63,957 nucleotides of DNA. Source: Actinomycetota bacterium (GTDB lineage: Bacteria; Actinomycetota; UBA4738; HRBIN12). Below are positions 6,703 through 24,018 of this stretch, in pieces (positions within the stretch are counted from its first letter, which is position 1; each line of letters opens with the position of its first letter). The translations under genes and the position numbers were made by a program. The DNA lies in NCBI GenBank assembly GCA_036374435.1, contig DASUTU010000057.1, forward strand, positions 1 to 63,957, in the 5' to 3' direction. The notes under the pieces are model-generated. The model did no database searches. It was not told the DNA's origin and worked only from the letters and a program-made list of their open reading frames with translations.

Positions 6703-7112
6703 CGGACGACGAGCACCGGGATGTGCGCCAGGTGGACCACCTTGTGCGCCACGCTGCCCACGAGGAGCCGGCTCCAGTCTGAGAGGCCGCGGGTGCCGAG
6801 CACGATGAGGTCCATCCCCTCGTCCGTCGCGGCGTCGAGGATCGCTCGCGGGGTCTGGCCGAGCGGTACGCGAACGATCTCTCCGCGCACGCCCACCCCG
6901 AGGTCCTTCAGCTCACGAACGACCCCGTCCACGAGATCCAACGCCTCCCGGGGAGTCTCGGCGTCCACGTCCACGCCGAGCGCCGCCTCGTGCTCGCGGA
7001 CGTGGAACACGAGGACCTCGCCACCGTGGCGGAACGCGAGCTCCGCCGCCACGGGGACGGCCCTTCGGCTGTGCTCGGAGCCGTCGACGGCGAGGAGGAT
7101 CCGCTCGAACAT
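6699..7112 (-). CDS. Universal stress protein (single USP domain)
   Basis: MFERILLAVDGSEHS; DLIVLGTRGLS...LLVGSVAHKVVH motif. Confidence 0.92.
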   Translation of the reverse strand: MFERILLAVDGSEHSRRAVPVAAELAFRHGGEVLVFHVREHEAALGVDVDAETPREALDLVDGVVRELKDLGVGVRGEIVRVPLGQTPRAILDAATDEGMDLIVLGTRGLSDWSRLLVGSVAHKVVHLAHIPVLVVR

Positions 7113-7236
7113 CGTGACCACCTCTCTCCGACGAGCATGACCCCGGCCGTCGCCGACGGGCGAGGGCCGTCCGGGCCTTCCCGACCGGGCCGACCGCCAC
7201 CGGGTGGAGGAGGTGACCCACTAGGATGAGGAGCAC

Positions 7237-9957
7237 ATGGCCACGACGGCCTTCCCCGCCCATCTGGTCTCGGACGTCGTCCTTCGAGACGGCTCCACGG
7301 TCCGGGTCCGGCCGGCGCGAGCGACCGACGTCACCCGGGTCGAGGACTACCTGATCGACCTGTCGCCGGAGACCCGCCGCCTGCGTTTCTGGTCGCAGGC
7401 CATCGACGTCAGGGAGCTGGCGCGCAAGATCGTCGACGTCGACTACGCCGACCACCTAACGCTCCTCGTCCTGCAGGGCGGCGACGAAGGCCGCATGATC
7501 GGCGGCGCCCAGTACATCCGGATCGAGGGCGGCCGCGCCGAGGTCAGCCTGTCGGCGGCCGACGACTTCCAGGGTCGTGGGATCGGCTCCATCCTCCTGG
7601 GACAGATGGCGCAGGAGGCCGCGCGTCACGGCGTCACCACGTTCGTGGCCGAGGTGCTTCCCGAGAACCACACGATGGTCAACGTCTTCCGCGCCAGCGG
7701 CTTCACCGTGTCCATCCGGGCCACGCCCGGGCTGATCGAGGTGGAGTTCCCGATCCTGCTGACCGACGAGGCCGTGGAGCACTTCGAGCAGCGCGAGACC
7801 GAGGCCGCCGTCAACGCCATGCGAACGCTCCTTTCCCCTCGCTCGGTCGCCGTGATCGGCGCGTCGCGGGACTCCTCGACCATCGGCGGCCAGCTCTTCC
7901 ACAACCTCCTGACGACGGAGTTCCACGGTCCCGTGTATCCGGTGAACCCGAAGGCCGAGGTGGTGCACGGCGTGGTGGCCCACCCCTCGGTCAAAGACGT
8001 CCCCGGGGACGTGGAAACCGCCTTCATCGTCGTCCCGGCCCCCTACGTGGCGCAGGTCGTCCGCGAATGCGGGGAGAAGGGAGTACGCGGGTTGGTGGTG
8101 ATCTCCTCGGGCTTCAGCGAGGTGGGCGGCGAGGGCGAGGCCCGCCAGGACGAGCTGGTGGAGATCAGCCGGGCGTTCGGGATGCGGATCATCGGCCCGA
8201 ACTGCATGGGCATCGTGAACACCGCCCCCGAGATCCGTCTGAACGGCACGTTCGCCACGGTGTACCCGCCGCCAGGACGCGTGGGGTTCCTGTCGCAATC
8301 GGGCGCCCTGGGCCTGGCGGTGATGCAGTACGCCACCGAGCTCGGCCTGGGCCTCTCCTCGTTCGTCTCGATCGGCAACAAGGCCGACATCTCGGGCAAC
8401 GACCTCGTCGCCTATTGGAACGAGGACCCGAACACGGACGTCGTGCTCCTGTACCTCGAGTCCTTCGGCAACCCACGTCGCTTCGCGCGTCTGGCGCGGG
8501 AGGTGAGTCGTCGCAAGCCGATCGTCGCCGTGAAGTCGGGGCGAAGCGCGGCGGGCGCCCGAGCGGCGGCGTCGCATACGGGCGCCCTCCTGGCCTCATC
8601 CGACGTCACGGTCGACGCCTTGTTCCGGCAGGCCGGCGTGATCCGCACCGACACGTTGGAGGAGATGTTCGACGTGGCCACGATCCTGGCGTACCAACCC
8701 CCGCCGAAAGGCGACCGGGTGGCCATCGTGACCAACGCGGGCGGGCTGGGAATCCTGTGCGCCGACACGTGTGAGGCCAACGGGCTCACGGTGCCCCCGC
8801 TGTCCGGGGGGACCGCCGAGGCGCTGCGCGGGTTCCTCCCCGCCGAGGCCTCGGTGGGCAACCCGGTGGACATGATCGCCTCGGCCGCGGCGGAGGACTA
8901 CGAACGGGCCATCCGGACGGTCGCCGCCGACCCCGAGATCGACGCGATGATCGTGATCTACATCCCGCCCCAGGCGACCAAGGCCGCCGAGATCGGGCAC
9001 GCCATCGTGCGTGCCATCAACGAGGTCGGTGGGCGGATCCCGGTGGCCACGACGTGGATGTCCACCCGTGGCCTGCCCCAGGAGCTCCAGGAGGCCGGCA
9101 CGCGGATCCCGTCGTTCTCCTACCCCGAGCAGGCGGCGATCGCGATGGCCCACGCAGCCCGGTACGGCCGGTGGCGCGACCAGCCCGTCGGCACGATCCC
9201 GCGGTTCCACGACACGAAGCCCGACGAGGCAACGGCCGTCCTGGCCGAAGCGATGGGGCGCGAGGGCAGGGGTTGGCTCACCGCGGAGGAGGTCGAGCAC
9301 CTGCTGGCGTGTTACGGCCTGCGCACGGCGCGATCCGAGCGAGCCGCCTCACCCGAAGAGGCAGGGAACGCGGCGGCCAAGATCGGCTCGGCGGTGGCGA
9401 TCAAGGCGTTCGGGCCCGACATCGTCCACAAGACGGAGGTGGGCGCCGTGGCCCTCGGCCTGGAGGGGCCCGCCGAGACGACGACGGCAGCCCGGGAGAT
9501 GGCCGACCGGGTGGCCGCCGCCGGGCTCACGCTCGAGGGGTTCCTCGTGCAGGAGATGGTTCGCGAAGGCGTGGAGATGCTGGTGGGCGTGGCACACGAC
9601 CCCCTGTTCGGGCCCGTGGTCGCGTGCAGCGCGGGGGGGACGACAGTCGAGCTGGTGCGCGACGTCGCCGTGCGCGTCACGCCGATCACCGAGCTCGACG
9701 CGGGCGAGATGGTCCGCTCGCTCCGAACGTTCCCGCTCCTGGAAGGGTTCCGGGGGGCGCCCAAGGTCGATGTGTCGGCCCTGGAGGAGGTGATCCTCCG
9801 GGTGGGGGCCCTGGTCGACAACCACCCCTCGGTCGCCGAGATGGACTGCAACCCCGTGATGGTCCTGCCGCACGGGGCGATGATCGTCGACGCCCGGGTG
9901 CGCGTTCAGGAGGCGCCTCAGATCAAGCCGCTCGCGGCCCGCGCGGCCGCCGGCTGA
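7237..9957 (+). CDS. GNAT acetyltransferase fused to NDP-forming acyl-CoA synthetase domains (type II Pat-like protein lysine acetyltransferase)
   Basis: N-terminal GNAT with FQGRGIG; CoA-binding VAVIGAS; GPNCMG; FLSQSGALG; SHTGAL; C-terminal ATP-grasp (HKTEVGAV, EMDCNP). Confidence 0.88.
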   Translation: MATTAFPAHLVSDVVLRDGSTVRVRPARATDVTRVEDYLIDLSPETRRLRFWSQAIDVRELARKIVDVDYADHLTLLVLQGGDEGRMIGGAQYIRIEGGRAEVSLSAADDFQGRGIGSILLGQMAQEAARHGVTTFVAEVLPENHTMVNVFRASGFTVSIRATPGLIEVEFPILLTDEAVEHFEQRETEAAVNAMRTLLSPRSVAVIGASRDSSTIGGQLFHNLLTTEFHGPVYPVNPKAEVVHGVVAHPSVKDVPGDVETAFIVVPAPYVAQVVRECGEKGVRGLVVISSGFSEVGGEGEARQDELVEISRAFGMRIIGPNCMGIVNTAPEIRLNGTFATVYPPPGRVGFLSQSGALGLAVMQYATELGLGLSSFVSIGNKADISGNDLVAYWNEDPNTDVVLLYLESFGNPRRFARLAREVSRRKPIVAVKSGRSAAGARAAASHTGALLASSDVTVDALFRQAGVIRTDTLEEMFDVATILAYQPPPKGDRVAIVTNAGGLGILCADTCEANGLTVPPLSGGTAEALRGFLPAEASVGNPVDMIASAAAEDYERAIRTVAADPEIDAMIVIYIPPQATKAAEIGHAIVRAINEVGGRIPVATTWMSTRGLPQELQEAGTRIPSFSYPEQAAIAMAHAARYGRWRDQPVGTIPRFHDTKPDEATAVLAEAMGREGRGWLTAEEVEHLLACYGLRTARSERAASPEEAGNAAAKIGSAVAIKAFGPDIVHKTEVGAVALGLEGPAETTTAAREMADRVAAAGLTLEGFLVQEMVREGVEMLVGVAHDPLFGPVVACSAGGTTVELVRDVAVRVTPITELDAGEMVRSLRTFPLLEGFRGAPKVDVSALEEVILRVGALVDNHPSVAEMDCNPVMVLPHGAMIVDARVRVQEAPQIKPLAARAAAG

Positions 9958-9969
9958 GGACCGCAGGCC

Positions 9970-10815
9970 TCACCGATCGGTCGAACCCAGCCTGGCCACG
10001 AGCACGGAGCAGGGGGCGTGGTGCGCGCAGTATTCGCTCACGCTGCCCAGCAGCACCCGCCGGACGCCCGAGACCCCCCGGTGCCCCACCACCAGCAGGT
10101 CGGTCTCGGTGCGCCCCACCGCCGCCACGAGCGCGTGTTCGGGACGTCCCATGGCCATCTCGCGAATGGGATCGGCGCCGAGCGCGGTGGCGGCGGCCAC
10201 CGCCGGTTCGAGCTCGGGCGGGTTCGGCTCGTCCTCCCGAAGGGTCCAGTCCCGGTCGTGGCCCCGGAACACCGGGACGACGTGGAGCACCCGGAGATCG
10301 CCCCCCGCCGCGGTCGCAAGGCCGGCGGCGAACGCGGCCGTGTCCGCCGAGGCATCGGACCCGTCCACGCCGCAGGTGATCCTGCGCGGGAAGCCGGCCC
10401 CGTCGGGCCGGGCGACCAGGACCGAGCACAGCGCCTCCCGCAGGACGTGCGCGGCCACCTGTCCGATCCGGAGCGCCCCGCCGATCAGGCCGGCGTCCGG
10501 ACCCAGGCAGAGCAGGTCCACCTCCTCCTCGGCGGCCTCCCCCACGAGCACCGCGCCGGGATCCCCGGCCAGGATGCGGGTCTCCGCCCGGACGTCGAGC
10601 TCGGCCGCCCGCCCCGCGGCCCGGGAGAGCACCTCCTCGGCCTCTCGCTCGACGTCGTCCGCGTGCGCTCGGCCGGTGTCCATGACATAGGCGATCTCGA
10701 GGCCCGCCCCGGTGATCGACGCCAGCCGGGCGGCCTGGCGGACGGCTTCCATGGAACGCTCGGAGCCGTCGGCCCCGGCGAGGATCCGTTCGAGGTGATG
10801 ATCGCCGAACGTCAA
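9970..10815 (-). CDS. Universal stress protein (tandem USP domains)
   Basis: Two USP repeats: RILAGADGSERS and RITCGVDGSDAS...LVVGHRG...LLGSVSEYCAHHAPCSVLV; TTG start overlaps the stop of the upstream CBS gene. Confidence 0.85.
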   Translation of the reverse strand: MTFGDHHLERILAGADGSERSMEAVRQAARLASITGAGLEIAYVMDTGRAHADDVEREAEEVLSRAAGRAAELDVRAETRILAGDPGAVLVGEAAEEEVDLLCLGPDAGLIGGALRIGQVAAHVLREALCSVLVARPDGAGFPRRITCGVDGSDASADTAAFAAGLATAAGGDLRVLHVVPVFRGHDRDWTLREDEPNPPELEPAVAAATALGADPIREMAMGRPEHALVAAVGRTETDLLVVGHRGVSGVRRVLLGSVSEYCAHHAPCSVLVARLGSTDR

Positions 10816-11522
10816 CGACGGGCCTTCGGCGCGAGCGCCGTCCAGGGCAATGGGAGGCCCGTGGACGGTGCTCTGTCGTCGGCCACGTAGGAAAGCTCGT
10901 GTTCGAAGGCGACCACGCCTTCGATCGAGAGCACGAGCCGCTCGATCACCGGGATCAGGCTCCGGCGCTCCACCTGTCCTTGGATCGTGACGACGCCGTC
11001 GCGGACCACGACGCGGATCGTATCGGGATCGATCCACAACGTCCGGCGGATGACGTCGTCTCGGATCTCGGTGGCGATCTCGGCGTCGTCGCGCAGGAAC
11101 ACCTTCAACAGGTCCGTGCGCGAGACGATGCCGAGGATGGTGCCGGCTTCGGGATCGACCACCGGGAGTCGCTTGACGGTTCGCTGGTGCATCAGGCGCG
11201 CCGCCTCAGCGAGCGAGGCATTCGGTCCTACGGTGATCACCGGCACGGTCATGAGCTCTGAGGCGATCAGCCCGGCGGCTTTCGAACGATCGTGCCGGCG
11301 GTGAACGCTCTCGAACAGGCGAGGATCACCGTCCAGGTCGGGGTCCTCCTTGAGGATCAAGTCCCCCTCCGACACGAGCCCGAGCACGTGGTCGTCCTCG
11401 TCCACGACGGGGACGGCGCTCACCCGGTGCTCCTGCATCAGCCGCACGATGTCCTTGAACGGCGTGAAGGCGTTCACGGACACGACGGCCCGGGTCATCA
11501 CATCCGACACCGCCCGCTTCAT
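10812..11522 (-). CDS. CBS-pair plus BON domain protein
   Basis: VSDVMTRAVVSV, VSAVPVVD, VKRLPVVD, GIVSRTDLL; C-terminal BON (VVVRDGVVTIQGQV); SD GGAAGGAG upstream of ATG 11522. Confidence 0.9.
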   Translation of the reverse strand: MKRAVSDVMTRAVVSVNAFTPFKDIVRLMQEHRVSAVPVVDEDDHVLGLVSEGDLILKEDPDLDGDPRLFESVHRRHDRSKAAGLIASELMTVPVITVGPNASLAEAARLMHQRTVKRLPVVDPEAGTILGIVSRTDLLKVFLRDDAEIATEIRDDVIRRTLWIDPDTIRVVVRDGVVTIQGQVERRSLIPVIERLVLSIEGVVAFEHELSYVADDRAPSTGLPLPWTALAPKARR

Positions 11523-11701
11523 CGTCCGTCTCTCCTTCCGGTCCGGCAGGTGCACGTGCCCCCAACGCCGCCAACCTAGGCGAGGACACCGCGGCTCCCC
11601 ACGGCCGGACGTCCCGGACGCGAACGGGCCCTCACCCAGCGCCGGATGGGCCGGTTGGACCGACCCCGTCGAGGCCTCCTCGGGCGCGTTACCCTCCGAT
11701 C

Positions 11702-13303
11702 GTGGATCGGAGGGACCGTCTCATCCGCGCCGGGATGACGCTGCACTCGGACCTCAGCCTGGAGGCCGTCCTGCAGCGTCTCGTCGAGGCCGCCGCCGAG
11801 CTCACGGACGCCCAATACGGGGCCCTTGGGGTGCTCGGGGCGGACGGTGGGATCGCCGAGTTCGTGACGACGGGGATCACTCCCGAGCAACGGGAGAAGA
11901 TCGGGGACCCCCCCACCGGACACGGGATCCTCGGTCTCCTGATCTCGGATGCGAGGGCGGTACGGATCCGCCGGATCGCGGACCATCCACTTTCGTACGG
12001 ATTCCCACCGAACCATCCCCCCATGATCTCGTTCCTCGGCGCGCCGGTCACCGCGCGGGGAAAGGTGTACGGGAACCTGTACCTGACCAACAAACAAGGG
12101 GCCGAGGAGTTCAGCTCCGAGGACGAGGAGGCCCTCGTCGTCCTGGCGGCGCAGGCGGGCGTGGCGGTCGCGAACGCCAGGCTGTACGAGGAATCTCGCA
12201 GCCGGCAGCGGTGGCTCGAGGCCTCCACGGAGATCGCCAACGCCATCCTCTCCGGGTCCCAACCGGACGAGGCGCTGGCGCTCGTGGGCGCCCGGGCGCG
12301 CGAGCTCCTGGCGGCCGACCTCACCTGGATCGTGACGCCGGAGGCGGCCGGTCCGCTGCGGGTGGCATTCGCGGAGGGCGACGCCGCCGAGACGATCCTC
12401 GGCCTGCCGCTTCCGCTTGAGGACTCGATCTCGGGCGAGGTGGTACGCACGGGGAGTCCCCTCGCCCTCGAAGACGCGAGGCAGGACGAGCGCGCGTTCC
12501 GGCCGCTCATCGACGCTGGCAAGATCGGTCCGGCCGTCTACGTGCCGCTGACGGCGCACGGGCGGGCGTTCGGCACGTTGGCCGCGGCCCGGGAGCCCGG
12601 AGGGCGCCCGTTCGACGAAGAGGCGATCCGCCTGCTCGGATCGTTCGCCGATCAGGCCGCCATCGCGCTCGAATACGCGCGGGCCCAGCAGGAGATCGAA
12701 CGCCTGGCGGTGCTGGAGGACCGCGAGCGGATCGCCAAGGAGCTGCACGACGGGGTCATCCAGGCGTTGTTCGCCGTCGGGATGGGGCTGCAGGGGACGG
12801 CGCTCATGTCGGCCGACGAGGAGCTCTCGGCCCGGGTCGAGGGCGCCGTTGCCGAGCTCGATCGCGTGATCCGCGATCTGCGCAACTACATCTTCGGCCT
12901 GCGGCCCGGGATCCTCGCCGACCGGCAGCTCGACAAGGCGCTGCGGGCCCTGGTGGAGGAGTTCCAGAGCCGCAGCGGGGTGGTGACGATCATCGAGCTG
13001 GACGAGACGATCGCCTCGGAGCTCTCGACCGTGGCCGCCGACGTGGTCCAGCTCACCCGCGAGGCGTTGTCGAATGTCGGCCGGCACGCGAAGGCCTCGA
13101 CCTGCCGGGTTTCGCTGACCCAGACCGACGGGTTCGCCCTCCTTGAGGTGGACGACGACGGCGGCGGGTTCGACACGGCCACCGCCCGGCGTGGCGAGGG
13201 GCTCAGGAACCTCGAGGAACGGGCCGTGGCCCTGGGCGGCGAGGCCTCGATCGAGTCCGTCCCCACCCAGGGAACCACGGTGCGGGTCCGGCTCCCCCTG
13301 TAA
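11702..13303 (+). CDS. GAF-GAF sensor histidine kinase, DevS/DosS/DosT-like (HisKA_3)
   Basis: GAF-A with GFPPNHPPMISFLG (heme-ligand His motif of DosS), second GAF, RERIAKELHDGVIQ H-box, EALSNVGRHA, DDDGGGF, GEGLRNL. Confidence 0.9.
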   Translation: MDRRDRLIRAGMTLHSDLSLEAVLQRLVEAAAELTDAQYGALGVLGADGGIAEFVTTGITPEQREKIGDPPTGHGILGLLISDARAVRIRRIADHPLSYGFPPNHPPMISFLGAPVTARGKVYGNLYLTNKQGAEEFSSEDEEALVVLAAQAGVAVANARLYEESRSRQRWLEASTEIANAILSGSQPDEALALVGARARELLAADLTWIVTPEAAGPLRVAFAEGDAAETILGLPLPLEDSISGEVVRTGSPLALEDARQDERAFRPLIDAGKIGPAVYVPLTAHGRAFGTLAAAREPGGRPFDEEAIRLLGSFADQAAIALEYARAQQEIERLAVLEDRERIAKELHDGVIQALFAVGMGLQGTALMSADEELSARVEGAVAELDRVIRDLRNYIFGLRPGILADRQLDKALRALVEEFQSRSGVVTIIELDETIASELSTVAADVVQLTREALSNVGRHAKASTCRVSLTQTDGFALLEVDDDGGGFDTATARRGEGLRNLEERAVALGGEASIESVPTQGTTVRVRLPL

Positions 13304-13309
13304 CCGGCG

Positions 13310-14662
13310 CTACTGGACCACCAGGGCGGTCACCATCCCGTACATGCCCTGCGGCCCCTCGACGTGCGGCAGGATGTGGCAGTGGTAGGCCCACACCCCC
13401 GGGTAGTCGGCCTTCAGGTACACGTCGAAGCGCTGGCCGGGCGCCACCGTCAACGTGTCGGAGAGGTACCGCTGCGACGGTCGAAGGGCGAAGCCGTCGA
13501 CCGCCACGACCTCGAAGTGGTAGCCGTGCAGGTGCATGGGGTGGAGCTGGGCCCCGTCGTTTGACAGGTGGATGAGGACGCCATCGCCCTGCTCGGCCAC
13601 GATCGGCTGGGTCGCCGGGAACTCCTTGCCGTTGAGCACGTACCCAGTCGGACCGTCCCCGAGGAACAGCGTGGCCTCGACGTCCACGGGGCGCCCGTAC
13701 AGCTCGCCCCAGTCGTCGTGGTCTGGCTGCACGTAGAAGGCGCCGTACAGGCCCTTGCCCACCTGCTCCGTCGAGTTGAAGTGCGAGTGGTAGACGTACA
13801 TTCCCGGCGGGTCCACGACCTCGAACTCGTAGGTGAAGAACCCGCCCGGCATGATGGGGTCCTGCGTGATGTACGGGACGCCGTCCATCCCGTTGGGGAG
13901 CGTGACGCCGTGCAGGTGCATCGTGGTGGGCTCGGACATCTCGTTGCGCAGGACGATCCGGACCGTATCTCCCTGGTTCACGCGGATCTCCGGACCCGGG
14001 ACGGTGCCGTTGAAGCCCATCGCCTCCACGAACGTCCCGGGCTTGGTCTCCCAGCGCACCTCTTCGGCGGTGAGCTCGAACACCTGCACCCCGCCCTCGA
14101 CGGTGGGCTCCAGCAGCTGGTTGCCGAGCGCCTCGGTCTCGGCGGGGAACGCCTCGACGCCTTCGCGGTGCCCGTCCAGCATCTCCTGGACGGAGACGGC
14201 GCCGTGGGACCCGTGGCCACCGGTCGCGCCGCTCGCCCCGGCCGCGACGTCTCCGGACGCACCGACGTTCAGCTCGCCGTCCATGCCGAGGTCGGCGTGA
14301 CCGGAGATCGAGCAGAAGATGCGGTACGAGCCCGGCTCGAGCGACGGTACCAGCAGCGTCCGGGTTTCGCCGGCCTGGATGTCGCCGGTGGTCTCGACGC
14401 CGCCGCCGGTGTCCACGGAGAGGTCGTGGGGGGCCGAGCCCTCGTTGCTCACCGTGAACGTGAGCTCCTCCCCGGCGGGCGCCTCGATGACGTCCGGGGT
14501 GATCGCGAACTCGGTGAGGGTCACGGAGAGCGCCGCCGCGGCGGCCTGGTCGCCGTCTCCCCCTCCGCCCGACGCCTCGGCGCCGCCGCCACAGGCGGCC
14601 GCGAGCACCGTCAGCGCGAGCAGGGCGACGGCCAGGGCCGCCCCAGGAACACGCGTGGTCAT
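13310..14662 (-). CDS. Lipoprotein multicopper oxidase: N-terminal cupredoxin fused to a two-domain MCO
   Basis: Lipobox LAAAC; cupredoxin H...CSISGH...M; domain 1 HLHG and YHSH; domain 2 HPMHLHG and YHCHILPH...M; SD GGAGGG 6 nt before ATG 14662. Confidence 0.88.
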   Translation of the reverse strand: MTTRVPGAALAVALLALTVLAAACGGGAEASGGGGDGDQAAAAALSVTLTEFAITPDVIEAPAGEELTFTVSNEGSAPHDLSVDTGGGVETTGDIQAGETRTLLVPSLEPGSYRIFCSISGHADLGMDGELNVGASGDVAAGASGATGGHGSHGAVSVQEMLDGHREGVEAFPAETEALGNQLLEPTVEGGVQVFELTAEEVRWETKPGTFVEAMGFNGTVPGPEIRVNQGDTVRIVLRNEMSEPTTMHLHGVTLPNGMDGVPYITQDPIMPGGFFTYEFEVVDPPGMYVYHSHFNSTEQVGKGLYGAFYVQPDHDDWGELYGRPVDVEATLFLGDGPTGYVLNGKEFPATQPIVAEQGDGVLIHLSNDGAQLHPMHLHGYHFEVVAVDGFALRPSQRYLSDTLTVAPGQRFDVYLKADYPGVWAYHCHILPHVEGPQGMYGMVTALVVQ

Positions 14663-14759
14663 TGCCATCCCTCCTGTCGGGTGTCCATGCGCACCGATGA
14701 CAAGGCTGCATGGAACGGGACCGGCCAAGGCGCGACCAGGCCGGAAGTCCCGCCGCCGG

Positions 14760-15173
14760 CTACCCGGAAGTCCCGGACCCCGGGGTCAGCCGCCGGACGG
14801 CGGTCAGGAGCTCGTCGCGGTCGGGATGGCGCCGCAGCCGCACCAGCTGACCGGGCACCTCACCACCGGGGTGGGAGCCGAGCACGACCACGCGGTGGCC
14901 GCCCATCAGGTACAGGCCGAGCAGCTCCTCCGCCGCCGTTCCCATCACCACCGACTCGCTGTCGAGGCTCATGTCCAGGACCACGACCTGACTCTCGGCC
15001 GCGAGGGGGCACGCCCCTCCTCGCGCGCCGACACACGTGTAGTCGGGTTCGGTCGGACCCGGGCACTCCGCGACCTGGTAACCGGCGCGTTCCAACCACG
15101 AACCCAACCGGGCCCGCTCGAACTGGTCGGCCTCCACGACGAGGACGGTGTCCTCGCCTGCCCCCATGGTCAT
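14760..15173 (-). CDS. Atypical receiver-like protein with a Cys-rich insertion
   Basis: VLVVEAD...WLERAGYQV and VVVLD resemble a REC fold; insert CPGP-x5-C-x6-CPL. Confidence 0.65.
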   Translation of the reverse strand: MTMGAGEDTVLVVEADQFERARLGSWLERAGYQVAECPGPTEPDYTCVGARGGACPLAAESQVVVLDMSLDSESVVMGTAAEELLGLYLMGGHRVVVLGSHPGGEVPGQLVRLRRHPDRDELLTAVRRLTPGSGTSG

Positions 15174-15232
15174 CGGGTTCAGGATGCGCCGACCACCCGG
15201 CCCGGGTCCCAGGCTCCAAGTCCCAACCCCGT

Positions 15233-15248
15233 GGGGTCGTTCGGCCCT
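15233..15248. promoter_or_regulatory. Candidate DevR/DosR-type box
   Basis: GGGGTCGTTCGGCCCT fits GGGNC-N4-GNCCC and is 15/16 identical to the reverse complement of 16476-16491; lies between the divergent 15173 and 15284 starts. Confidence 0.6.
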
Positions 15249-15283
15249 GAGGACCTCTTCGAACGCTCACGCATCCTGGCCGC

Positions 15284-15754
15284 ATGTTCGTTCGCTACTT
15301 CCTGGAGCTGCCCGTTCCGGCGGGGACGGTCGAGAAGGCGCTGCTCGACCATCCGGACGCCTGGGTCCCCGGGTTGCTTCGGGCCGCCGAAGATCGCGGG
15401 CAACACCTGCTGGCCGAGGTGGGGTTCGACGTCGAGCCGGGGCGCATCGACAAGCAGGTCGTGATCCGGCTGGGCTCGGTCTATCACACGCCCTCGAAGA
15501 CTCTGCTGCCGATGACGTGGCGAGCCACCGGCCTGGAGCGACTGTTCCCGCAGCTCGACGCCGATCTCGAGGTGGCCACCCTCGGGCCCGCCCGGACCCA
15601 GCTCTCGATCAGCGCCCGGTACCGACCGCCCATGGGCGCCCTGGGCCGCACCCTGGACCGGGCCCTCCTGCACCGGGTCGCCGAGGCGACCGTCAAAGAC
15701 TTCCTGGACCGCGTGGGGGAACGTCTGATCGCTCACGAGACCACCACCGCCTGA
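15284..15754 (+). CDS. Hypothetical protein, possibly SRPBCC/helix-grip-like
   Basis: Clean 156-aa ORF with strong codon usage, LFPQLDADLEVA...YRPP motif; directly upstream of the DevR-like gene. Confidence 0.7.
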   Translation: MFVRYFLELPVPAGTVEKALLDHPDAWVPGLLRAAEDRGQHLLAEVGFDVEPGRIDKQVVIRLGSVYHTPSKTLLPMTWRATGLERLFPQLDADLEVATLGPARTQLSISARYRPPMGALGRTLDRALLHRVAEATVKDFLDRVGERLIAHETTTA

Positions 15755-15770
15755 GCGGTAGGATGCGCCC

Positions 15771-16451
15771 GTGACCGAGAAGGCCACCAAGACGCCGCCG
15801 CTGCGCGTGCTGCTGGTCGACGACCACGAGGTGGTTCGCAGCGGCGTGAAGGCACTGTTGCAGTCCACCGAGGACATCGTCGTGACCGCCGAGGCAGGCT
15901 CGATCCGCGAGGCGGTGGACGAGGCCGATCGCACCCGCCCCGACGTCGTGGTCATGGATGTCCGGCTGGCCGACGGCAGCGGCATCGAGGCCACCCGGGA
16001 GATCCGGGCCCGGCACCCCAAGACCCAGGTGGTGATGTTGACCTCGTTCGCCGACGACGAGGCCCTCTTCGCCTCCATCATGGCCGGCGCGTCCGGCTAC
16101 GTGCTCAAGCAGGTCAAAGGCGGCGAGTTGGTGCGGGCCATCCGGACCATCGGGAAAGGCGAGAGCCTGCTCGACCCGGCCGTGACCAACGCCGTGCTGG
16201 ACCGGCTGCGGCGGGGCAAACACCTGCTCAAGGACGAGAAGCTGGCCCGGCTGTCGCCCCAGGAGGAGCGGATCCTGTCCCTGGTCGCCGACGGCAAGAC
16301 CAACAAGGAGATCGGCGACGAGCTGAACCTGGCCGAGAAGACCGTCAAGAACTACGTCTCGAGCATCCTGTCCAAGCTCGAGGTGGCCCGCCGGGCCGAG
16401 GCCGCCGCGTACCTGGCGCGGCACACCACCACTCCCGGCACGCAGGGCTGA
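15771..16451 (+). CDS. NarL/LuxR-family response regulator, DevR/DosR-like
   Basis: LLVDDHEVVR, VVVMDVRL, LTSFADDEAL, GYVLK, C-terminal HTH GKTNKEIG...AEKTVKNYVSSILSKL. Confidence 0.93.
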   Translation: MTEKATKTPPLRVLLVDDHEVVRSGVKALLQSTEDIVVTAEAGSIREAVDEADRTRPDVVVMDVRLADGSGIEATREIRARHPKTQVVMLTSFADDEALFASIMAGASGYVLKQVKGGELVRAIRTIGKGESLLDPAVTNAVLDRLRRGKHLLKDEKLARLSPQEERILSLVADGKTNKEIGDELNLAEKTVKNYVSSILSKLEVARRAEAAAYLARHTTTPGTQG

Positions 16452-16475
16452 GCGGGCCGGCGGAACCCCCCGAGG

Positions 16476-16491
16476 GGGGCCGAACGACCCC
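16476..16491. promoter_or_regulatory. Candidate DevR/DosR-type box upstream of PFOR
   Basis: GGGGCCGAACGACCCC near-palindrome about 70 nt before the nifJ ATG; nearly identical to the 15233 site. Confidence 0.6.
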
Positions 16492-16562
16492 GGCCCGGGG
16501 CTCGCCCACGCGAAAGCATGGTTCCGGAACCTGCCGATCTTGGCCTGGCGTGGGGTGAGCCG

Positions 16563-20179
<3,617 letters not shown>

Positions 20180-20183
<4 letters not shown>

Positions 20184-21217
20184 CCGCGAACCTGCGGACC
20201 AGGTACCTGGGGCTCGAGCTGTCCAACCCCGTCGTGCCGTCGGCATCGACCCTGTCCTCCCGCATCGACAACCTGAAGCGCCTGGAGGCGGCCGGGGCGT
20301 CGGCGGTCGTCATGCAGTCCTTGTTCGAGGAGCAGATCGAGCACGAGGAGATCCAGATCCATCGGATGCTCGAGACCGGCGTGGACAGCTTCCCCGAGGC
20401 GTTGACGCACGTCCCAGACCTCGGCGATTACAACACGGGCCCGGACGAGTACCTGCGGCATCTCGAGGCCTGCAAGAAGGAGCTGACCATCCCCGTGATC
20501 GGCTCGCTGAACGGCTCCAGCGAGGGCGGCTGGCTCCGGTACGCGAGGATGATCCAGGAGGCCGGCGCGGACGCGCTCGAGCTGAACGTGTACGTGATCG
20601 CCGCCGACCCCGGGGTGAGCGGCTCGGAGATCGAGCGGCGGTACGTCGACCTGGTCTCGGCGGTCCGCCAAACCGTCACGATCCCGCTCGCCGTGAAGAT
20701 CGGACCGTACTTCTCCTCGGTCGGCAACGTGGCCCGTCAGCTCGTCGACGCCGGGGCCGACGGACTCGTGTTGTTCAACCGGTTCCTTCAGCCGGACATC
20801 GACCTCGAGTCACTCGAGGTCGATCCCGCGTTGCACCTGTCGACGTCGGAGGAGGTCCGACTCCCGTTGCGGTGGATCGCCATCTTGTTCGGGCGGGTGA
20901 ACTGCTCGCTCGCCGCGACCACCGGCGTGCACACGTGGGAGGACGCGGTCAAGCTCCTGCTGGCCGGCGCGGACGTGACGATGATGGCATCCGCTCTGTT
21001 CCGGCACGGCCCCGAACACCTTCAGACCGTCCTGACCGGCCTGCGGACCTGGTTGGACGAGTACGGCTACGAGTCGGTCGAGCAGCTCAAGGGCAGCGTC
21101 AGCCAGATGAACGTGGCCGACCCTTCCGCGTTCGCGCGAGCGAACTACATGGAGATGCTGGTCAACTACTCGAGCCCGTACGACTGGCGCGAGATCCCGG
21201 GTAGCGTGCAGGCGTAG
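20180..21217 (+). CDS. Dihydroorotate dehydrogenase-like FMN protein (PFOR-associated)
   Basis: YLGLELSNP, SLFEEQI, PVIGSLNG, ALELNVY, LVLFNRF, ATTGVH; ATGA overlap with nifJ. Confidence 0.88.
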
Positions 21218-21261: not shown

Positions 21262-24018
21262 TCAGGACGGCGGCTTCTCCGCCAGCATCTGGCGGAGCAC
21301 CATCTGGAGGATGCCGCCGTGGCGGTAGTAGTCGACCTCGGCCGCGCCGTCGATCCGCACGAGAGCGCGGAACCGGGTCTGGCCGCCGTCCTCGCGCGCC
21401 GCCACCACGTCGACCTCCTGGCCGGGCGTGACCCCGCCCTCGAGCGCGGTGATCGTGAATCGCTCGGTGCCCGAGAGGCCGAGCGTCTTGGCGTTCTCGC
21501 CGTCGGCGTACTGGAGCGGCAGGACTCCCATGCCGACCAGGTTGCTCCGGTGGATCCGCTCGAAGCTCTCGGCCAGGACGGCCCGGACGCCGAGGAGCGA
21601 CGGCCCCTTGGCCGCCCAGTCCCGCGAGGAGCCGCTGCCGTACTCCTTCCCCGCGAAGACCACCAGCGGCACGCCGAGGTCCCGGTACCGCAACGCCGCG
21701 TCGTAGATCTCGACCTGGTTCCCGGACGGGAACATGGTCGTCCACGGCCCCTCGGCCCCCGGCGCGAGCTCGTTGCGCAGCCGCACGTTGGCGAACGTGC
21801 CTCGCATCATCACGTGGTGGTTGCCGCGGCGCGCCCCGTAGCTGTTGAAGTCGCGCTGGGCCACGCCCCGCTCGATCAGGAAGCGGCCCGCCGGTGACTC
21901 CGGCTTGATCGACCCGGCCGGAGAGATGTGGTCGGTGGTGATGGAGTCGCCCACCTTGACCAGGCACCGGGCGTCGACGACGTCGCCGGGCTCGGGCGGC
22001 TCGGGGGCGAGCGCGGAGAAGAACGGCGGCTCCTGGACGTAGGTCGAGCCCGGATCCCACTCGTACAGGGGGCCGGTCGGCGACGGCAGGGCGTTCCAAC
22101 GTTCGTCGCCCTCGAAGATCCTGCCGTACTCCCGGCGGAACTGGCCGGGATCCACCGACGCCGCGACGGCCTCTCGGACCTCGTCGGCGCTCGGCCACAG
22201 GTCGCGGAGGTAGACCGGCTCGCCGCCCGGGGCGTACCCGAGGGGCTCGGTGGTGACGTCCACGCCCACGTGACCCGCGAGCGCATAGGCCACGCACAGC
22301 GGCGGCGAGGCCAGGTAGCTGGCCCGGACCAGCGGGTGGATCCGACCCTCGAAGTTCCGATTGCCCGAGAGCACCGCCACCACCGCCAGGTCCTCCTCGG
22401 CCACGGCGTGTGCCACCTCGTCGGGCAGCGGCCCCGAGTTCCCGATGCACGTCGTGCACCCGAAGCCGACCAGCGAGAACCCCAGCTTGTCCAGGTACGG
22501 CTGGAGCCCGGCGGCGTCAAGGTATTCGGTGACGACCCGCGAGCCGGGGGCGAGCGAGGTCTTGACCCACGGCTTGGACTCGAGCCCGGCCTCGACCGCC
22601 TTCTTGGCCAGCAGGCCGGCGGCGAGCATCACGGTGGGGTTCGACGTGTTCGTGCAGCTCGTGATGGCCGCGATGACCACCGAGCCGTGGCGCACCGGGC
22701 CCTGGTTCGGGACTCGGGAATCCGTCACCTCCACCGTTCGGTCGGTGTCGACGATCGGCTCGACCGGGCCGGTCTGGCCGCCTCCCTCCTCGAAGAAGTC
22801 GGACACCTGGAGCGCCGGGGCGTCCGGGCCCAGGCGCTCCTGGAACGCCTCGACGAACGAGCCCCACACGTTCGGAAGCGGGACCCGGTCCTGCGGGCGC
22901 TTCGGGCCCGCCACCGACGGCTCGATCGCCGACAGGTCCAGGTCGAGGACCTCGCTGAAGTCCGGCTCGCGATCCCCGTCGCGGCGGAACAGGCCCTGCT
23001 CCTTGGTGTACCGCTCGACCAGGTCGACGCGGTCCTCCCGGCCGGTGAACCGCAGGTACCGAAGGGTCTCGTCGTCCACCGGGAAGAACGCGGCCGTGGC
23101 GCCGTATTCGGGACACATGTTCGAGAGCGTGGCCCGGTCGGCGAGCTCCAGGGTGGACAGGCCGTCCCCGAAGAACTCGACGAACGTGCCCACCACGCCG
23201 TGCGCCCGGAGCATCTGGGTGAGCGTCAACACGAGGTCCGTCGCCGTCGTCCCCGCCGGCAGCGCTCCCGAGACGCGAACGCCGATCACGACGGGCCGGG
23301 GCAGGAACATCGGCTGGCCCAGCATGGCGGCCTCGGCCTCGATGCCGCCGACCCCCCAGCCGAGCACTCCCAGGCCGTTGATCATCGTGGTGTGCGAGTC
23401 GGTCCCGACCAGCGTGTCGGGCATGGCCACGCCGTCTCGCTCGGCGACCACCTTCCCCAGGTGCTCGAGATTGACCTGGTGGCAGATCCCGGCGCCTGGC
23501 GGGACGACCCGCATGCCGTCGAACGCCTGCTGCGCCCATCGCAGCAGCGCGTAGCGCTCGCCGTTACGGCGGTACTCCCACTCGATGTTGGCCTCGTACG
23601 CGGCGGGCGAGCGGAACAGGTCCACCTGCACCGAGTGGTCGATGATGAGGTCGACGTCGACGAGCGGATTCACCCGCGCCGGGTCGCCGCCGGCCCGCGC
23701 CATGGCCGAGCGCATCGCGGCCAGGTCCACCACGGCGGGGACGCCCGTGAAGTCCTGCATGAGGACCCGGCTGGGCATGAACGCGAGCTTGGCCTCCGCG
23801 GCAACCTCGGGCCAGGACGCGAGCGCGAGCACGTCGTCGTCGGCCACGTCGCGGGTCCCGGCTCGGCGCAGGAGGTTCTCCAGCAGGATCCGGATCGTGT
23901 GGGGGAGCCGATCGAGGTTCCCATGCCCCTGCTCTCCCAGCCAGGAGAGCCGGAACAGATCGACCGCACCGCCGCCGGCCTGCAGTCGTCCCTTCGCGCC
24001 CGCGAGTCCCGAGTTCAT
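21262..24018 (-). CDS. acnA: Aconitate hydratase A
   Basis: MQDFTGVP, IDHSVQVD, GTDSHT, AAITSCTNTSN, GCTTCIGNSG, TTDHISPAG, GSGSSRDWAAKG. Confidence 0.97.
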   Translation of the reverse strand: MNSGLAGAKGRLQAGGGAVDLFRLSWLGEQGHGNLDRLPHTIRILLENLLRRAGTRDVADDDVLALASWPEVAAEAKLAFMPSRVLMQDFTGVPAVVDLAAMRSAMARAGGDPARVNPLVDVDLIIDHSVQVDLFRSPAAYEANIEWEYRRNGERYALLRWAQQAFDGMRVVPPGAGICHQVNLEHLGKVVAERDGVAMPDTLVGTDSHTTMINGLGVLGWGVGGIEAEAAMLGQPMFLPRPVVIGVRVSGALPAGTTATDLVLTLTQMLRAHGVVGTFVEFFGDGLSTLELADRATLSNMCPEYGATAAFFPVDDETLRYLRFTGREDRVDLVERYTKEQGLFRRDGDREPDFSEVLDLDLSAIEPSVAGPKRPQDRVPLPNVWGSFVEAFQERLGPDAPALQVSDFFEEGGGQTGPVEPIVDTDRTVEVTDSRVPNQGPVRHGSVVIAAITSCTNTSNPTVMLAAGLLAKKAVEAGLESKPWVKTSLAPGSRVVTEYLDAAGLQPYLDKLGFSLVGFGCTTCIGNSGPLPDEVAHAVAEEDLAVVAVLSGNRNFEGRIHPLVRASYLASPPLCVAYALAGHVGVDVTTEPLGYAPGGEPVYLRDLWPSADEVREAVAASVDPGQFRREYGRIFEGDERWNALPSPTGPLYEWDPGSTYVQEPPFFSALAPEPPEPGDVVDARCLVKVGDSITTDHISPAGSIKPESPAGRFLIERGVAQRDFNSYGARRGNHHVMMRGTFANVRLRNELAPGAEGPWTTMFPSGNQVEIYDAALRYRDLGVPLVVFAGKEYGSGSSRDWAAKGPSLLGVRAVLAESFERIHRSNLVGMGVLPLQYADGENAKTLGLSGTERFTITALEGGVTPGQEVDVVAAREDGGQTRFRALVRIDGAAEVDYYRHGGILQMVLRQMLAEKPPS

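What the first reader, a model, noticed from the sequence alone, without database searches (positions are those of the whole stretch)
20180..21217. PFOR-coupled DHODH-like flavoprotein lacks the catalytic cysteine
Class 1 DHODHs have ELN.SCPN with a catalytic Cys (established). Here the loop reads ELNVYVIAAD (seen), so dihydroorotate oxidation is unlikely. ATGA translational coupling to nifJ suggests a PFOR partner, such as a flavodoxin-like one-electron acceptor or a ferredoxin:NAD(P)/quinone/fumarate oxidoreductase (inference).
Basis: partly seen in the sequence, partly recalled or inferred. Interest (0 to 1): 0.55.

Follow-up and report, generated by a model that had tools for sequence, protein, structure and literature searches.

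The report
PFOR-linked DHODH-like flavoprotein, function unknown
This gene encodes an ordinary member of a catalogued but uncharacterised family of dihydroorotate-dehydrogenase look-alikes that lack the catalytic cysteine and sit directly behind one branch of pyruvate:ferredoxin oxidoreductase genes in many bacterial phyla, so it is most likely a flavin-carrying redox partner of that enzyme.

Summary
Window 20180-21217 (+) encodes a 345-aa TIM-barrel protein whose ATG overlaps the nifJ stop (ATGA). Its loop ELNVYVIAAD aligns with ELNxSCPN of true DHODHs, putting Val139 where the catalytic Cys sits.

It is a clear member of NCBIfam NF005741, "dihydroorotate dehydrogenase-like protein" (466 bits, cut-off 303), and fails every PyrD and PreA equivalog model. 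None of 38 diverse representatives has a conserved Cys or Ser at that position. Three residues I take, from memory of DHODA, to contact the flavin (N136, K173, N200) are conserved. The genome has a canonical DHODH elsewhere (ELNASCPN).

The link to PFOR is strong:
- nifJ lies directly upstream in 27/30 Actinomycetota loci, 71/76 cross-phylum loci and 30/30 Bacteroidota loci.
- In 50 of 128 measured pairs the two genes overlap.
- The linked NifJ proteins form their own clade. It carries a mostly basic 6-residue insertion beside the second Fe-S motif of domain V. The DHODH-like family is acidic.

Best reading (about 0.5): an FMN module that takes electrons from NifJ's Fe-S chain and reduces an unidentified two-electron acceptor.

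The family and its co-transcription with nifJ are already in databases and papers, and this scan had flagged the pairing in other genomes. The function has not been tested.

The parts
20180..21217 (+). DHODH-like TIM-barrel protein (P0001, 345 aa), a member of NCBIfam NF005741 / PRK07565
   Evidence: NF005741 scores 466.5 bits against a cut-off of 303, covering residues 3-332 of 335 profile positions. Pfam DHO_dh gives only 53.5 bits. The AF2 model has pLDDT 90 and its best PDB matches are the DPD FMN domain and class 1 DHODs.
20579..20608 (+). Codons for ELNVYVIAAD (residues 134-143), the loop that in true DHODHs carries the catalytic Cys or Ser. Val139 stands at the Cys position and Ala141 at the Asn position.
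   Evidence: Alignments to DHODB 1ep1 and to the genome's own DHODH P0273.
16518..20183 (+). nifJ: single-chain pyruvate:ferredoxin/flavodoxin oxidoreductase (P0002, 1221 aa)
   Evidence: TIGR02176 scores 1759 bits against a cut-off of 911, full length. Pfam finds POR_N, PFOR_II, POR, EKR, Fer4 and TPP_enzyme_C.
20180..20183 (+). ATGA: the start of the DHODH-like gene overlaps the nifJ stop
   Evidence: Read directly from the sequence. The same 4-nt overlap occurs in 40 of 128 nifJ/DHODH-like pairs from other genomes.
20167..20172 (+). AGGAGG Shine-Dalgarno-like site 7 nt before the ATG, inside the 3' end of nifJ
   Evidence: Read directly from the sequence. Its function is not tested.
18867..18884 (+). 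Codons for NifJ residues 784-789 (KEVVKH). This 6-residue, mostly basic insertion follows the last Cys-Pro of the second CxxCxxCxxxCP motif in ferredoxin-like domain V. It is specific to the NifJ clade that is linked to the DHODH-like gene.
   Evidence: Present in all 49 clade-B NifJ sequences and absent (6-8 alignment gaps) from all 25 clade-A sequences. Domain V holds the medial and distal clusters (PMC12337175).
15771..16451 (+). NarL/LuxR-type response regulator 66 nt upstream of nifJ, possibly its regulator or part of the same transcript
   Evidence: Pfam Response_reg plus GerE. A GAF-GAF-HisKA_3 kinase lies at 11702-13303 and USP genes at 6699-7121 and 9970-11037. No regulatory link has been tested.

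Best explanation
The gene encodes a flavin (probably FMN) TIM-barrel protein of the DHODH/DPD fold that has lost dihydroorotate chemistry and works as a dedicated partner of the NifJ-type PFOR encoded directly upstream.

Proposed mechanism (inferred):
- The acidic protein docks on ferredoxin-like domain V of NifJ, next to the clade-specific, mostly basic insertion.
- Its FMN takes two single electrons from the outer [4Fe-4S] cluster during pyruvate oxidation. This parallels how the FMN domains of DPD/PreA and DHODB PyrD exchange electrons with Fe-S clusters.
- It then passes them as a hydride to a two-electron acceptor that needs no enzyme acid/base. NAD(P)+ and a quinone are the simplest candidates; an enoate such as fumarate is less likely.

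The pair would then be a ferredoxin-independent pyruvate:acceptor oxidoreductase, expressed here in a hypoxia-type gene cluster.

Shown: the fold, family membership, loss of the catalytic residues, retention of N136, K173 and N200, the synteny, and the co-segregation with one NifJ clade.
Inferred: FMN binding, physical contact, the direction of electron flow and the identity of the acceptor.
For: - Family and fold: NF005741 at 466 bits. The AF2 model has pLDDT 90 and matches the DPD FMN domain and DHODA/B.
- Catalytic Cys absent family-wide, with no conserved Cys, so no Fe-S cluster of its own.
- N136, K173 and N200 are invariant or at least 90% conserved, as are G249 and S271 at phosphate-loop positions. 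That these match the DHODA flavin contacts Asn127, Lys164 and Asn193 rests on my memory of the DHODA structure.
- nifJ lies directly upstream on the same strand in 27/30 Actinomycetota loci, 71/76 assessable loci from more than ten phyla, and 30/30 Bacteroidota loci.
- Of 128 junctions, 50 overlap, the median gap is 18 nt, and 125 are at most 300 nt.
- No third gene is conserved (at most 11 of 80 loci), so the unit is the pair.
- Co-occurrence is asymmetric. 30-31 of 35 genomes with the family have NifJ, while 26 of 57 NifJ genomes lack the family, which fits an accessory partner.
- In the NifJ tree all downstream-linked NifJ sequences fall in one clade (support 0.98/1.0). In the Actinomycetota sample plus the window that clade is 22 of 27 linked, against 0 of 25 in the other clade.
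- That clade has a mostly basic 6-residue insertion in domain V. The DHODH-like family is acidic, with median pI 5.07 and net charge -12; this protein has pI 4.75 and charge -19.7.
- In a few loci a GltD-like protein (Fer4_20 + FAD/NAD(P) + Fer4_21) precedes nifJ. Together with the DHODH-like protein it reproduces the full DPD domain set.
- Co-transcription and co-regulation with nifJ are published for Propionibacterium (PMC7650540) and Synechocystis sll0741-sll0744 (PMC11368403).
Against: - There is no biochemical evidence anywhere for FMN binding, complex formation or any activity.
- The position equivalent to DHODA Lys43 (Q46 here) is variable, and the region equivalent to Asn67 is replaced by a roughly 40-residue insert of low model confidence (pLDDT 52-78). 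Flavin binding could therefore be weakened.
- 26 of 57 NifJ-bearing Actinomycetota, and 4-5 members of the linked clade itself, lack the gene, so PFOR works without it.
- Some family copies are not next to nifJ (L020, L028, L030, L045, L068, L073, L074, and unlinked copies in G101 and G087).
- The charge complementarity between insertion and partner is only a correlation. The insertion could be a clade marker unrelated to docking.
- The cross-phylum NifJ sequences in the tree were chosen because they are linked, so clade purity outside Actinomycetota is not tested.
- Apparent PFOR-DHODH-like fusion proteins in the database are mostly frameshift artefacts and give no support.
Confidence: 0.5

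Rival explanations
1. It is a free-standing FMN enzyme of a pathway that merely runs alongside PFOR. It would reduce or oxidise a small metabolite using free ferredoxin, flavodoxin or NAD(P)H, share an operon with nifJ for co-regulation only, and never touch NifJ.
For: The TIM-barrel fold with retained N136, K173 and N200 suggests a substrate-turning flavoenzyme. Some family copies are unlinked to nifJ and sit beside a Zn-ADH or qNOR. PFOR works without it in many genomes. Family-specific invariant residues (R201, W118, W232, E50/E51, R320) could form a new substrate pocket.
Against: Very tight and ancient pairing, with overlapping stop and start in 50 of 128 pairs and no third conserved gene. 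Co-segregation with one NifJ clade that has its own change in the Fe-S domain. No candidate substrate or pathway gene recurs in the neighbourhood.
Confidence: 0.22
2. It is a protective or auxiliary factor for PFOR in organisms exposed to oxygen. It could be an O2- or radical-scavenging flavoprotein, or a non-catalytic stabiliser that shields the outer clusters, as domain VII does in Desulfovibrio africanus PFOR.
For: In this window the gene sits in a cluster of hypoxia type. In Synechocystis it is transiently induced together with nifJ on entry to microoxia. The clade-specific change lies in the cluster-bearing domain V. Shielding of the medial and distal clusters by an extra domain has a precedent (PMC12337175). 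That the host phyla are largely aerobes, phototrophs or facultative organisms is my own general knowledge, not something tested here (the phyla are listed).
Against: Bacteroidota, mostly anaerobes, carry it in 60 of 151 genomes. The strict conservation of N136, K173 and N200 argues for redox chemistry rather than a purely structural role. There is no direct evidence for O2 reactivity.
Confidence: 0.15
3. It is a genuine dihydroorotate dehydrogenase that uses another residue as base, with NifJ's Fe-S chain serving as its electron sink or source.
For: Pfam DHO_dh is above its cut-off (53.5 against 27). JGI annotates relatives as 'dihydroorotate dehydrogenase (fumarate)'. A few family members have Ser at the Cys-aligned position.
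Against: The Cys-aligned position is variable across the family. The Asn of the ...SCPN motif is lost, and the N67-type loop is replaced. All PyrD equivalog models score far below their cut-offs. The genome has a canonical DHODH with ELNASCPN (P0273).
Confidence: 0.03

Closest known systems
NCBIfam NF005741 / PRK07565 'dihydroorotate dehydrogenase-like protein'. From memory, CDD cd04739 DHOD_like is described as keeping the FMN site but lacking catalytic residues.
   Same: Full-length match well above the curated cut-off. Same length, same loop (LELNxY..D), and the same LFNRFYQPD and SLFEEQ motifs. Same position behind nifJ as Synechocystis sll0744, Chloroflexus Caur_2081 and the Propionibacterium gene.
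   Different: Nothing of note: it is a typical member. Here the pair lacks the GltD-like third gene seen in Propionibacterium and some Proteobacteria.
Class 1 dihydroorotate dehydrogenases (L. lactis DHODA 1dor; DHODB PyrD 1ep1 with PyrK)
   Same: Same TIM-barrel fold (Foldseek E about 1e-15, TM about 0.68-0.75). The Asn, Lys and Asn positions that I take, from memory, to contact the flavin are conserved. In DHODB the FMN exchanges electrons with a partner's Fe-S cluster.
   Different: No catalytic Cys, no orotate-binding Asn in the loop, and the Lys43 equivalent is variable. There is an extra acidic insert of about 40 residues (50-90) and a C-terminal extension (ERANY motif). About 20% identity. 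It is partnered with PFOR rather than PyrK.
Dihydropyrimidine dehydrogenase (pig DPD 1h7w; bacterial PreT/PreA)
   Same: Best structural match, to the DPD FMN domain (Foldseek E 7e-17). In DPD the FMN is fed by 2x[4Fe-4S] ferredoxin-type domains (Pfam Fer4_21 type). NifJ domain V also gives a Fer4_21 hit (31.8 bits, below that model's cut-off of 35). Where a GltD-like gene is present, the locus carries all the DPD domains split over separate genes.
   Different: No Fe-S domain of its own, no Cys671 equivalent, and the PreA model scores 77 bits against a cut-off of 335. The electron source would be pyruvate through PFOR rather than NADPH, and the acceptor is not a pyrimidine.
Pyruvate:NADP+ oxidoreductase of Euglena and Cryptosporidium (PFOR fused to a flavoprotein reductase); from memory
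   Same: It is a precedent for a PFOR whose electrons go straight into a dedicated flavoprotein module instead of free ferredoxin.
   Different: The flavoprotein there is a CPR-type FMN/FAD/NADPH module fused in one chain. Here it is a separate DHOD-fold TIM barrel without an evident NAD(P) domain.

Membership tests
NCBIfam NF005741 (DHODH-like protein, PRK07565) | Whole-protein HMM score above the curated cut-off with full-length coverage | tested here: met
   466.5 bits against a cut-off of 303; residues 3-332 on profile positions 2-331 of 335.
NCBIfam NF005741 (DHODH-like protein, PRK07565) | Family signature motifs: Cys-less LELNxYxxPxD loop, SLFEEQ, LFNRFYQPD, invariant K173 | tested here: met
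   Alignment A1 of 38 representatives; the window protein has all of these motifs.
NCBIfam NF005741 (DHODH-like protein, PRK07565) | Typical genomic position directly downstream of a NifJ-type PFOR | tested here: met
   ATGA overlap in the window. Same arrangement in 27/30, 71/76 and 30/30 loci.
Class 1 dihydroorotate dehydrogenase (PyrD) | Catalytic Cys in the ELNxSCPN loop (Ser in class 2) | tested here: not met
   Val139 aligns with the Cys of DHODB and of the genome's own DHODH. The position is variable in the family.
Class 1 dihydroorotate dehydrogenase (PyrD) | Orotate-binding Asn residues (Asn of ...SCPN; the NxxGxxN loop after beta-3) | tested here: not met
   Ala141 stands at the loop Asn position. 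The NxxGxxN region is replaced by the 50-90 insert. Which residues bind orotate is taken from memory of the DHODA structures.
Class 1 dihydroorotate dehydrogenase (PyrD) | Equivalog HMM score above cut-off | tested here: not met
   NF005574 106.5 against 269; TIGR01037 99.1 against 270; NF041011 95.5 against 330; NF002702 51 against 301.
Class 1 dihydroorotate dehydrogenase (PyrD) | FMN-binding residues of the barrel | tested here: inconclusive
   N136, K173, N200, G249 and S271 are conserved, but the Lys43 equivalent (Q46) is variable. No ligand modelling or coordinates were available.
Class 1 dihydroorotate dehydrogenase (PyrD) | Dihydroorotate oxidation or pyrD complementation | not testable with these tools
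   Needs an enzyme assay or genetics. The genome has a canonical DHODH elsewhere (P0273, ELNASCPN).
Dihydropyrimidine dehydrogenase PreA subunit | DHOD-like FMN domain plus C-terminal 2x[4Fe-4S] domain, catalytic Cys, and equivalog score | tested here: not met
   NF006183 77.4 against 335. There is no conserved Cys column and no Fer4 domain.
Flavodoxin (classical PFOR acceptor) | Small alpha/beta flavodoxin fold | tested here: not met
   The model is a 345-aa TIM barrel and all top PDB matches are DPD or DHOD. It could still act like a flavodoxin.

The most novel reading that the evidence does not exclude
NifJ of the linked clade and the DHODH-like protein form a stable complex. The partner's FMN sits within electron-tunnelling distance of the outer [4Fe-4S] cluster of domain V, held by the clade-specific, mostly basic insertion and the partner's acidic SLFEEQ region. 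This would be a widespread ferredoxin-independent pyruvate:acceptor (NAD(P)+ or quinone) oxidoreductase, a split bacterial counterpart of DPD/PreA wiring and of eukaryotic PNO. It would redefine what cyanobacterial, actinobacterial and Bacteroides 'PFOR' actually reduces.
Probability: 0.35. Interest if true: 0.65.

Novelty: new member of a known kind. Interest (0 to 1): 0.4.

Why it matters
PFOR is a central enzyme of anaerobic and microoxic carbon metabolism, of cyanobacterial fermentation and H2 production, and of metronidazole activation in Bacteroides. A partner gene travels with one large PFOR clade across more than ten phyla: 35 of 201 sampled Actinomycetota genomes and 60 of 151 sampled Bacteroidota genomes carry it, as do model strains such as Synechococcus elongatus and B. 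thetaiotaomicron. Yet it has no assigned function and is widely mislabelled as 'dihydroorotate dehydrogenase (fumarate)' or 'dihydroorotate oxidase'.

Working out its acceptor would correct metabolic models, since electrons from pyruvate may bypass ferredoxin. It would also fix pyrimidine-pathway annotations. For this particular window the gene is an ordinary family member, and the value lies in the family-level question.

Tried and rejected
1. Rosetta-stone fusions. The 'longer' search returned about 50 proteins joining PFOR and DHODH-like parts. Inspection of 13 junctions showed long Arg/Gly/Pro-rich out-of-frame stretches or short junk linkers. They are frameshift or gene-calling artefacts, made easy because the partner's frame stays open far into nifJ in high-GC DNA (window ORF 18839-21217). 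I rejected them as evidence.

2. A third conserved gene. All-against-all clustering of ORFs in 80 loci found none present in more than 11 loci. HoxEFU, a GltD-like protein and HypF each occur in about 5.

3. A GltD-like partner in this genome: only weak hits, E 1e-6 or worse.

4. A mycobacterial-type DosR box (GGGACnnnnGTCCC, up to 1 mismatch): 3 hits in the window against 11 expected by chance, none near nifJ.

5. Unlinked paralogues (L020, L030): their neighbours are a Zn-ADH and a qNOR, which was uninformative.

6. The search for related loci with the 38-sequence alignment failed because no stretch was conserved enough. It worked with a 12-sequence subset.

8. The ESM Atlas returned only DHOD-like clusters of the same family.

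9. No model coordinates or multimer prediction were available, so I could not map conserved residues around the flavin site or test docking.

10. Literature searches found no biochemical study of the family.

Full report
**1. What is there**

Window 20180-21217 (+) is an open frame of 345 codons (P0001). Its ATG overlaps the TGA of the preceding 1221-codon ORF 16518-20183 (P0002) as ATGA. An AGGAGG sits 7 nt upstream.

P0002 is a full-length single-chain pyruvate:ferredoxin/flavodoxin oxidoreductase: TIGR02176 scores 1759 bits against a cut-off of 911.

P0001 gives only a modest Pfam DHO_dh hit (53.5 bits). It matches NCBIfam NF005741 (PRK07565, "dihydroorotate dehydrogenase-like protein") over its full length at 466.5 bits against a cut-off of 303. 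Every PyrD and PreA equivalog model scores far below its cut-off.

**2. The catalytic loop**

- phmmer against PDB chains aligns ELNVYVIAAD with ELNISCPNVK of L. lactis DHODB.
- hhalign of the family profile against the genome's own canonical DHODH aligns it with VELNASCPNV.
- Val139 therefore replaces the catalytic Cys, and Ala141 replaces the Asn of the SCPN motif.
- In 38 representatives at 34-58% identity the loop follows LELNxYxxPxD. The Cys-aligned position is variable (V, Y, H, S, F, Q, R...) and no column has 30% or more Cys. The loss is a family trait, and the protein has no Fe-S site of its own.
- N136, K173 and N200 are conserved, as are G249 and S271 in the phosphate loops. I take these to be the equivalents of the flavin contacts Asn127, Lys164 and Asn193 of DHODA; that assignment is from memory of the DHODA structures.
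- The Lys43 equivalent (Q46) is variable. The substrate loop after beta-3 is replaced by an acidic insert of about 40 residues (50-90) with low model confidence.
- The AF2 model (pLDDT 90, pTM 0.87) is a TIM barrel. Its best solved matches are the FMN domain of pig DPD and the class 1 DHODs, and no closer structure exists.

**3. It is not the cell's DHODH**

The assembly (2.8 Mb, 95% complete) has two other DHO_dh hits.
- P0273 carries ELNASCPN and looks like the working enzyme.
- P0274 follows a PyrK-like gene but reads LEIYLGTPD, again without Cys. This is recorded under things noticed in passing.

**4. Link to PFOR**

- In 201 sampled Actinomycetota genomes, 35 have a family member over the cut-off. 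27 of the 30 loci fetched have the PFOR C-terminus directly upstream on the same strand.
- A scan of species-representative genomes returned relatives from Actinomycetota, Planctomycetota, Chloroflexota, Cyanobacteriota, Bacteroidota, Ignavibacteriota, Verrucomicrobiota, Acidobacteriota, Alpha- and Gammaproteobacteria, NC10, Dormiibacterota and Sumerlaeota. 71 of the 76 loci with enough upstream DNA have nifJ directly upstream.
- In Bacteroidota 60 of 151 genomes carry the family. All 30 loci fetched have nifJ upstream on the same strand, one of them with a gap of about 1 kb.
- Among 14 model genomes only Synechococcus elongatus and Bacteroides thetaiotaomicron score above the cut-off.
- In 128 pairs the nifJ stop and the partner's start overlap by 4 nt in 40 and by other lengths in 10. 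The median spacer is 18 nt and 125 are within 300 nt.
- ORF clustering across 80 loci found no third conserved gene. HoxEFU follows the pair in 5 loci. HypF lies nearby in 5. A GltD-like protein (Fer4_20 + FAD/NAD(P) + Fer4_21) occurs in 5 loci and directly precedes nifJ in 3 of them.

**5. Co-occurrence and the NifJ tree**

57 of the 201 Actinomycetota genomes have a NifJ over the cut-off. 30-31 of the 35 family-positive genomes are among them. About 26 NifJ genomes lack the family, so the partner is accessory.

I built a FastTree (LG+G, 1155 columns) from three sets of NifJ sequences: 51 from that sample, the window's own, and 22 cross-phylum linked ones. With midpoint rooting it splits into two clades with support 0.98 and 1.0.
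- Clade B holds all 44 NifJ sequences with the partner downstream, plus 5 without it (one of those sits at a contig end).
- Clade A holds 25 NifJ sequences. None has the partner downstream. Two have a divergent copy upstream.
- In the sample that was not chosen by linkage (Actinomycetota sample plus the window), this is 22 of 27 linked in clade B against 0 of 25 in clade A.
- The cross-phylum sequences were picked because they are linked, so they only show that linked NifJ sequences from many phyla cluster together. Phyla are intermixed within clade B, which suggests the pair moves as a unit.

Clade B differs from clade A by a 6-residue insertion directly after the last Cys-Pro of the second CxxCxxCxxxCP motif:
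- Window NifJ 784-789 reads KEVVKH, in the context CPAKSKEVVKHKSIDM.
- Clade A reads CPAKE------KALVM.
- The insertion is basic in most but not all clade-B sequences.
- This motif belongs to domain V, which holds the medial and distal clusters (PMC12337175).

The partner family is acidic: median pI 5.07 and net charge -12, with the window protein at pI 4.75 and charge -19.7. It also has a nearly invariant SLFEEQ motif.

**6. Literature**

- McCubbin et al. 2020 (PMC7650540) noted that in Propionibacterium the PFOR is flanked by a GltD-like gene and this DHODH-like gene. The genes are co-transcribed and co-regulated, and the authors postulated an Nfn-like complex.
- In Synechocystis the nifJ transcription unit comprises sll0741, sll0743 and sll0744 ("dihydroorotate dehydrogenase (fumarate)"). 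It is transiently induced on entry to dark microoxia (PMC11368403).
- The Chloroflexus aurantiacus genome paper lists Caur_2080 (PFOR) and the next locus tag, Caur_2081, as "dihydroorotate oxidase". That looks like the same mislabel, but I did not check the sequence.
- I found no biochemical study.
- This scan's earlier notes show that first readers flagged the same pairing in several other genomes.

**7. Mechanism**

The most economical reading is that the protein keeps the flavin and the Fe-S-to-flavin wiring logic of its relatives. In DHODB the FMN talks to PyrK's cluster. In DPD/PreA the FMN is fed by a 2x[4Fe-4S] ferredoxin-type domain.

Here NifJ's own ferredoxin-like domain V would play that role. 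The partner would collect two electrons from pyruvate oxidation and deliver a hydride to a two-electron acceptor. Loss of the acid/base Cys fits acceptors that need none, such as NAD(P)+ or a quinone. It fits fumarate or pyrimidines less well.

Where the GltD-like protein is present, the locus contains every DPD domain in split form. That argues the FMN site is the end of an Fe-S chain. In this genome no such protein exists.

Every step beyond fold, conservation and synteny is inference.

Rivals:
- a co-regulated but free-standing flavoenzyme;
- a protective or stabilising factor for PFOR under oxygen exposure;
- a true DHODH, which is very unlikely.

**8. Context in the window**

Upstream lie the following:
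- USP genes (6699-7121, 9970-11037);
- a GNAT/acyl-CoA-synthetase-like Pat-type protein (7237-9957);
- a GAF-GAF-HisKA_3 kinase (11702-13303);
- a multicopper oxidase (13310-14728, minus strand);
- a NarL/LuxR response regulator ending 66 nt before nifJ.

Aconitase follows on the opposite strand (21262-24018). This resembles DosRS-type hypoxia clusters, but no mycobacterial DosR box was found.

**9. Verdict and caveats**

The gene is a typical member of an already catalogued family, and its association with nifJ is already in print. What remains open, and worth an experiment, is the family's function.

This analysis adds two things: the breadth and tightness of the pairing, and its co-segregation with a NifJ clade that has a distinctive, mostly basic insertion in the cluster-bearing domain.

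The tallies include eight unpublished genomes (G148, G048, G082, G174, G001, G018, G120, G088). All are below the family cut-off and none contributed a locus or sequence used here.

Noticed in passing
L002:1387-2487 (G000:C127:24549-25649): A second DHOD paralogue in the same genome (P0274) scores above the class 1B PyrD cut-off (NF005574, 283.8 against 269) and follows a PyrK-like gene (DHODB_Fe-S_bind domain). Its catalytic loop reads LEIYLGTPD, with Thr where Cys should be and no ELN Asn. The canonical ELNASCPN enzyme is P0273 on contig C67.
   Followed up: partly
window 18867-18884 (NifJ residues 784-789): A 6-residue, mostly basic insertion follows the second Fe-S motif of NifJ domain V. 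It marks the whole NifJ clade that carries the DHODH-like gene downstream. In four of the five clade members that lack the partner the insertion reads D/N-P-x (DPTRR, NPDHK, DPSHL), whereas many linked ones read xxVKHK, although linked cyanobacterial NifJ also carry Pro here.
   Followed up: partly
window 6699-16451: A hypoxia-type cluster lies upstream of nifJ. It holds a single USP and a tandem USP, a GNAT plus acyl-CoA-synthetase-like (Pat-type) protein, a GAF-GAF-HisKA_3 kinase, a multicopper oxidase with a cupredoxin domain (13310-14728, minus strand), and a NarL/LuxR regulator 66 nt before nifJ. No mycobacterial-type DosR box was found.
   Followed up: partly
window 15693-20246 (-) and 18839-21217 (+): Very long shadow ORFs (1517 aa antisense to nifJ; 792 aa in the partner's frame reaching 1.3 kb into nifJ) are artefacts of high G+C. 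The second one explains why databases hold many false PFOR-DHODH-like 'fusion' proteins produced by single frameshifts.
   Followed up: yes
L182 (G094:C349) and L176 (G051:C261): In one Actinomycetota family (f11), nifJ is flanked by two DHODH-like paralogues, one upstream and one downstream. The same family also has unlinked copies next to a Zn-ADH and a qNOR (L020). In family f18 a divergent copy sits upstream of a clade-A NifJ (L149, L159).
   Followed up: partly
L036, L068, L076, L109, L113; L056, L069, L105: In five loci (Isosphaeraceae, Thermoflexales, Chlorogloeopsis, Gloeobacterales, Sumerlaeota) the DHODH-like gene is followed directly by hoxE-hoxF-hoxU of the bidirectional hydrogenase; in four of these nifJ also lies directly upstream (not in L068). 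In three proteobacterial loci a GltD-like protein with an added C-terminal 2x[4Fe-4S] domain directly precedes nifJ, giving a split DPD-like domain set.
   Followed up: partly
Literature: PMC3150298 (Chloroflexus aurantiacus genome paper): Caur_2081, the next locus tag after PFOR Caur_2080, is listed there as an aerobic 'dihydroorotate oxidase' and used to argue for aerobic/anaerobic enzyme pairs. It is probably a member of this Cys-less family and so mis-assigned. I did not check the sequence here.
   Followed up: no
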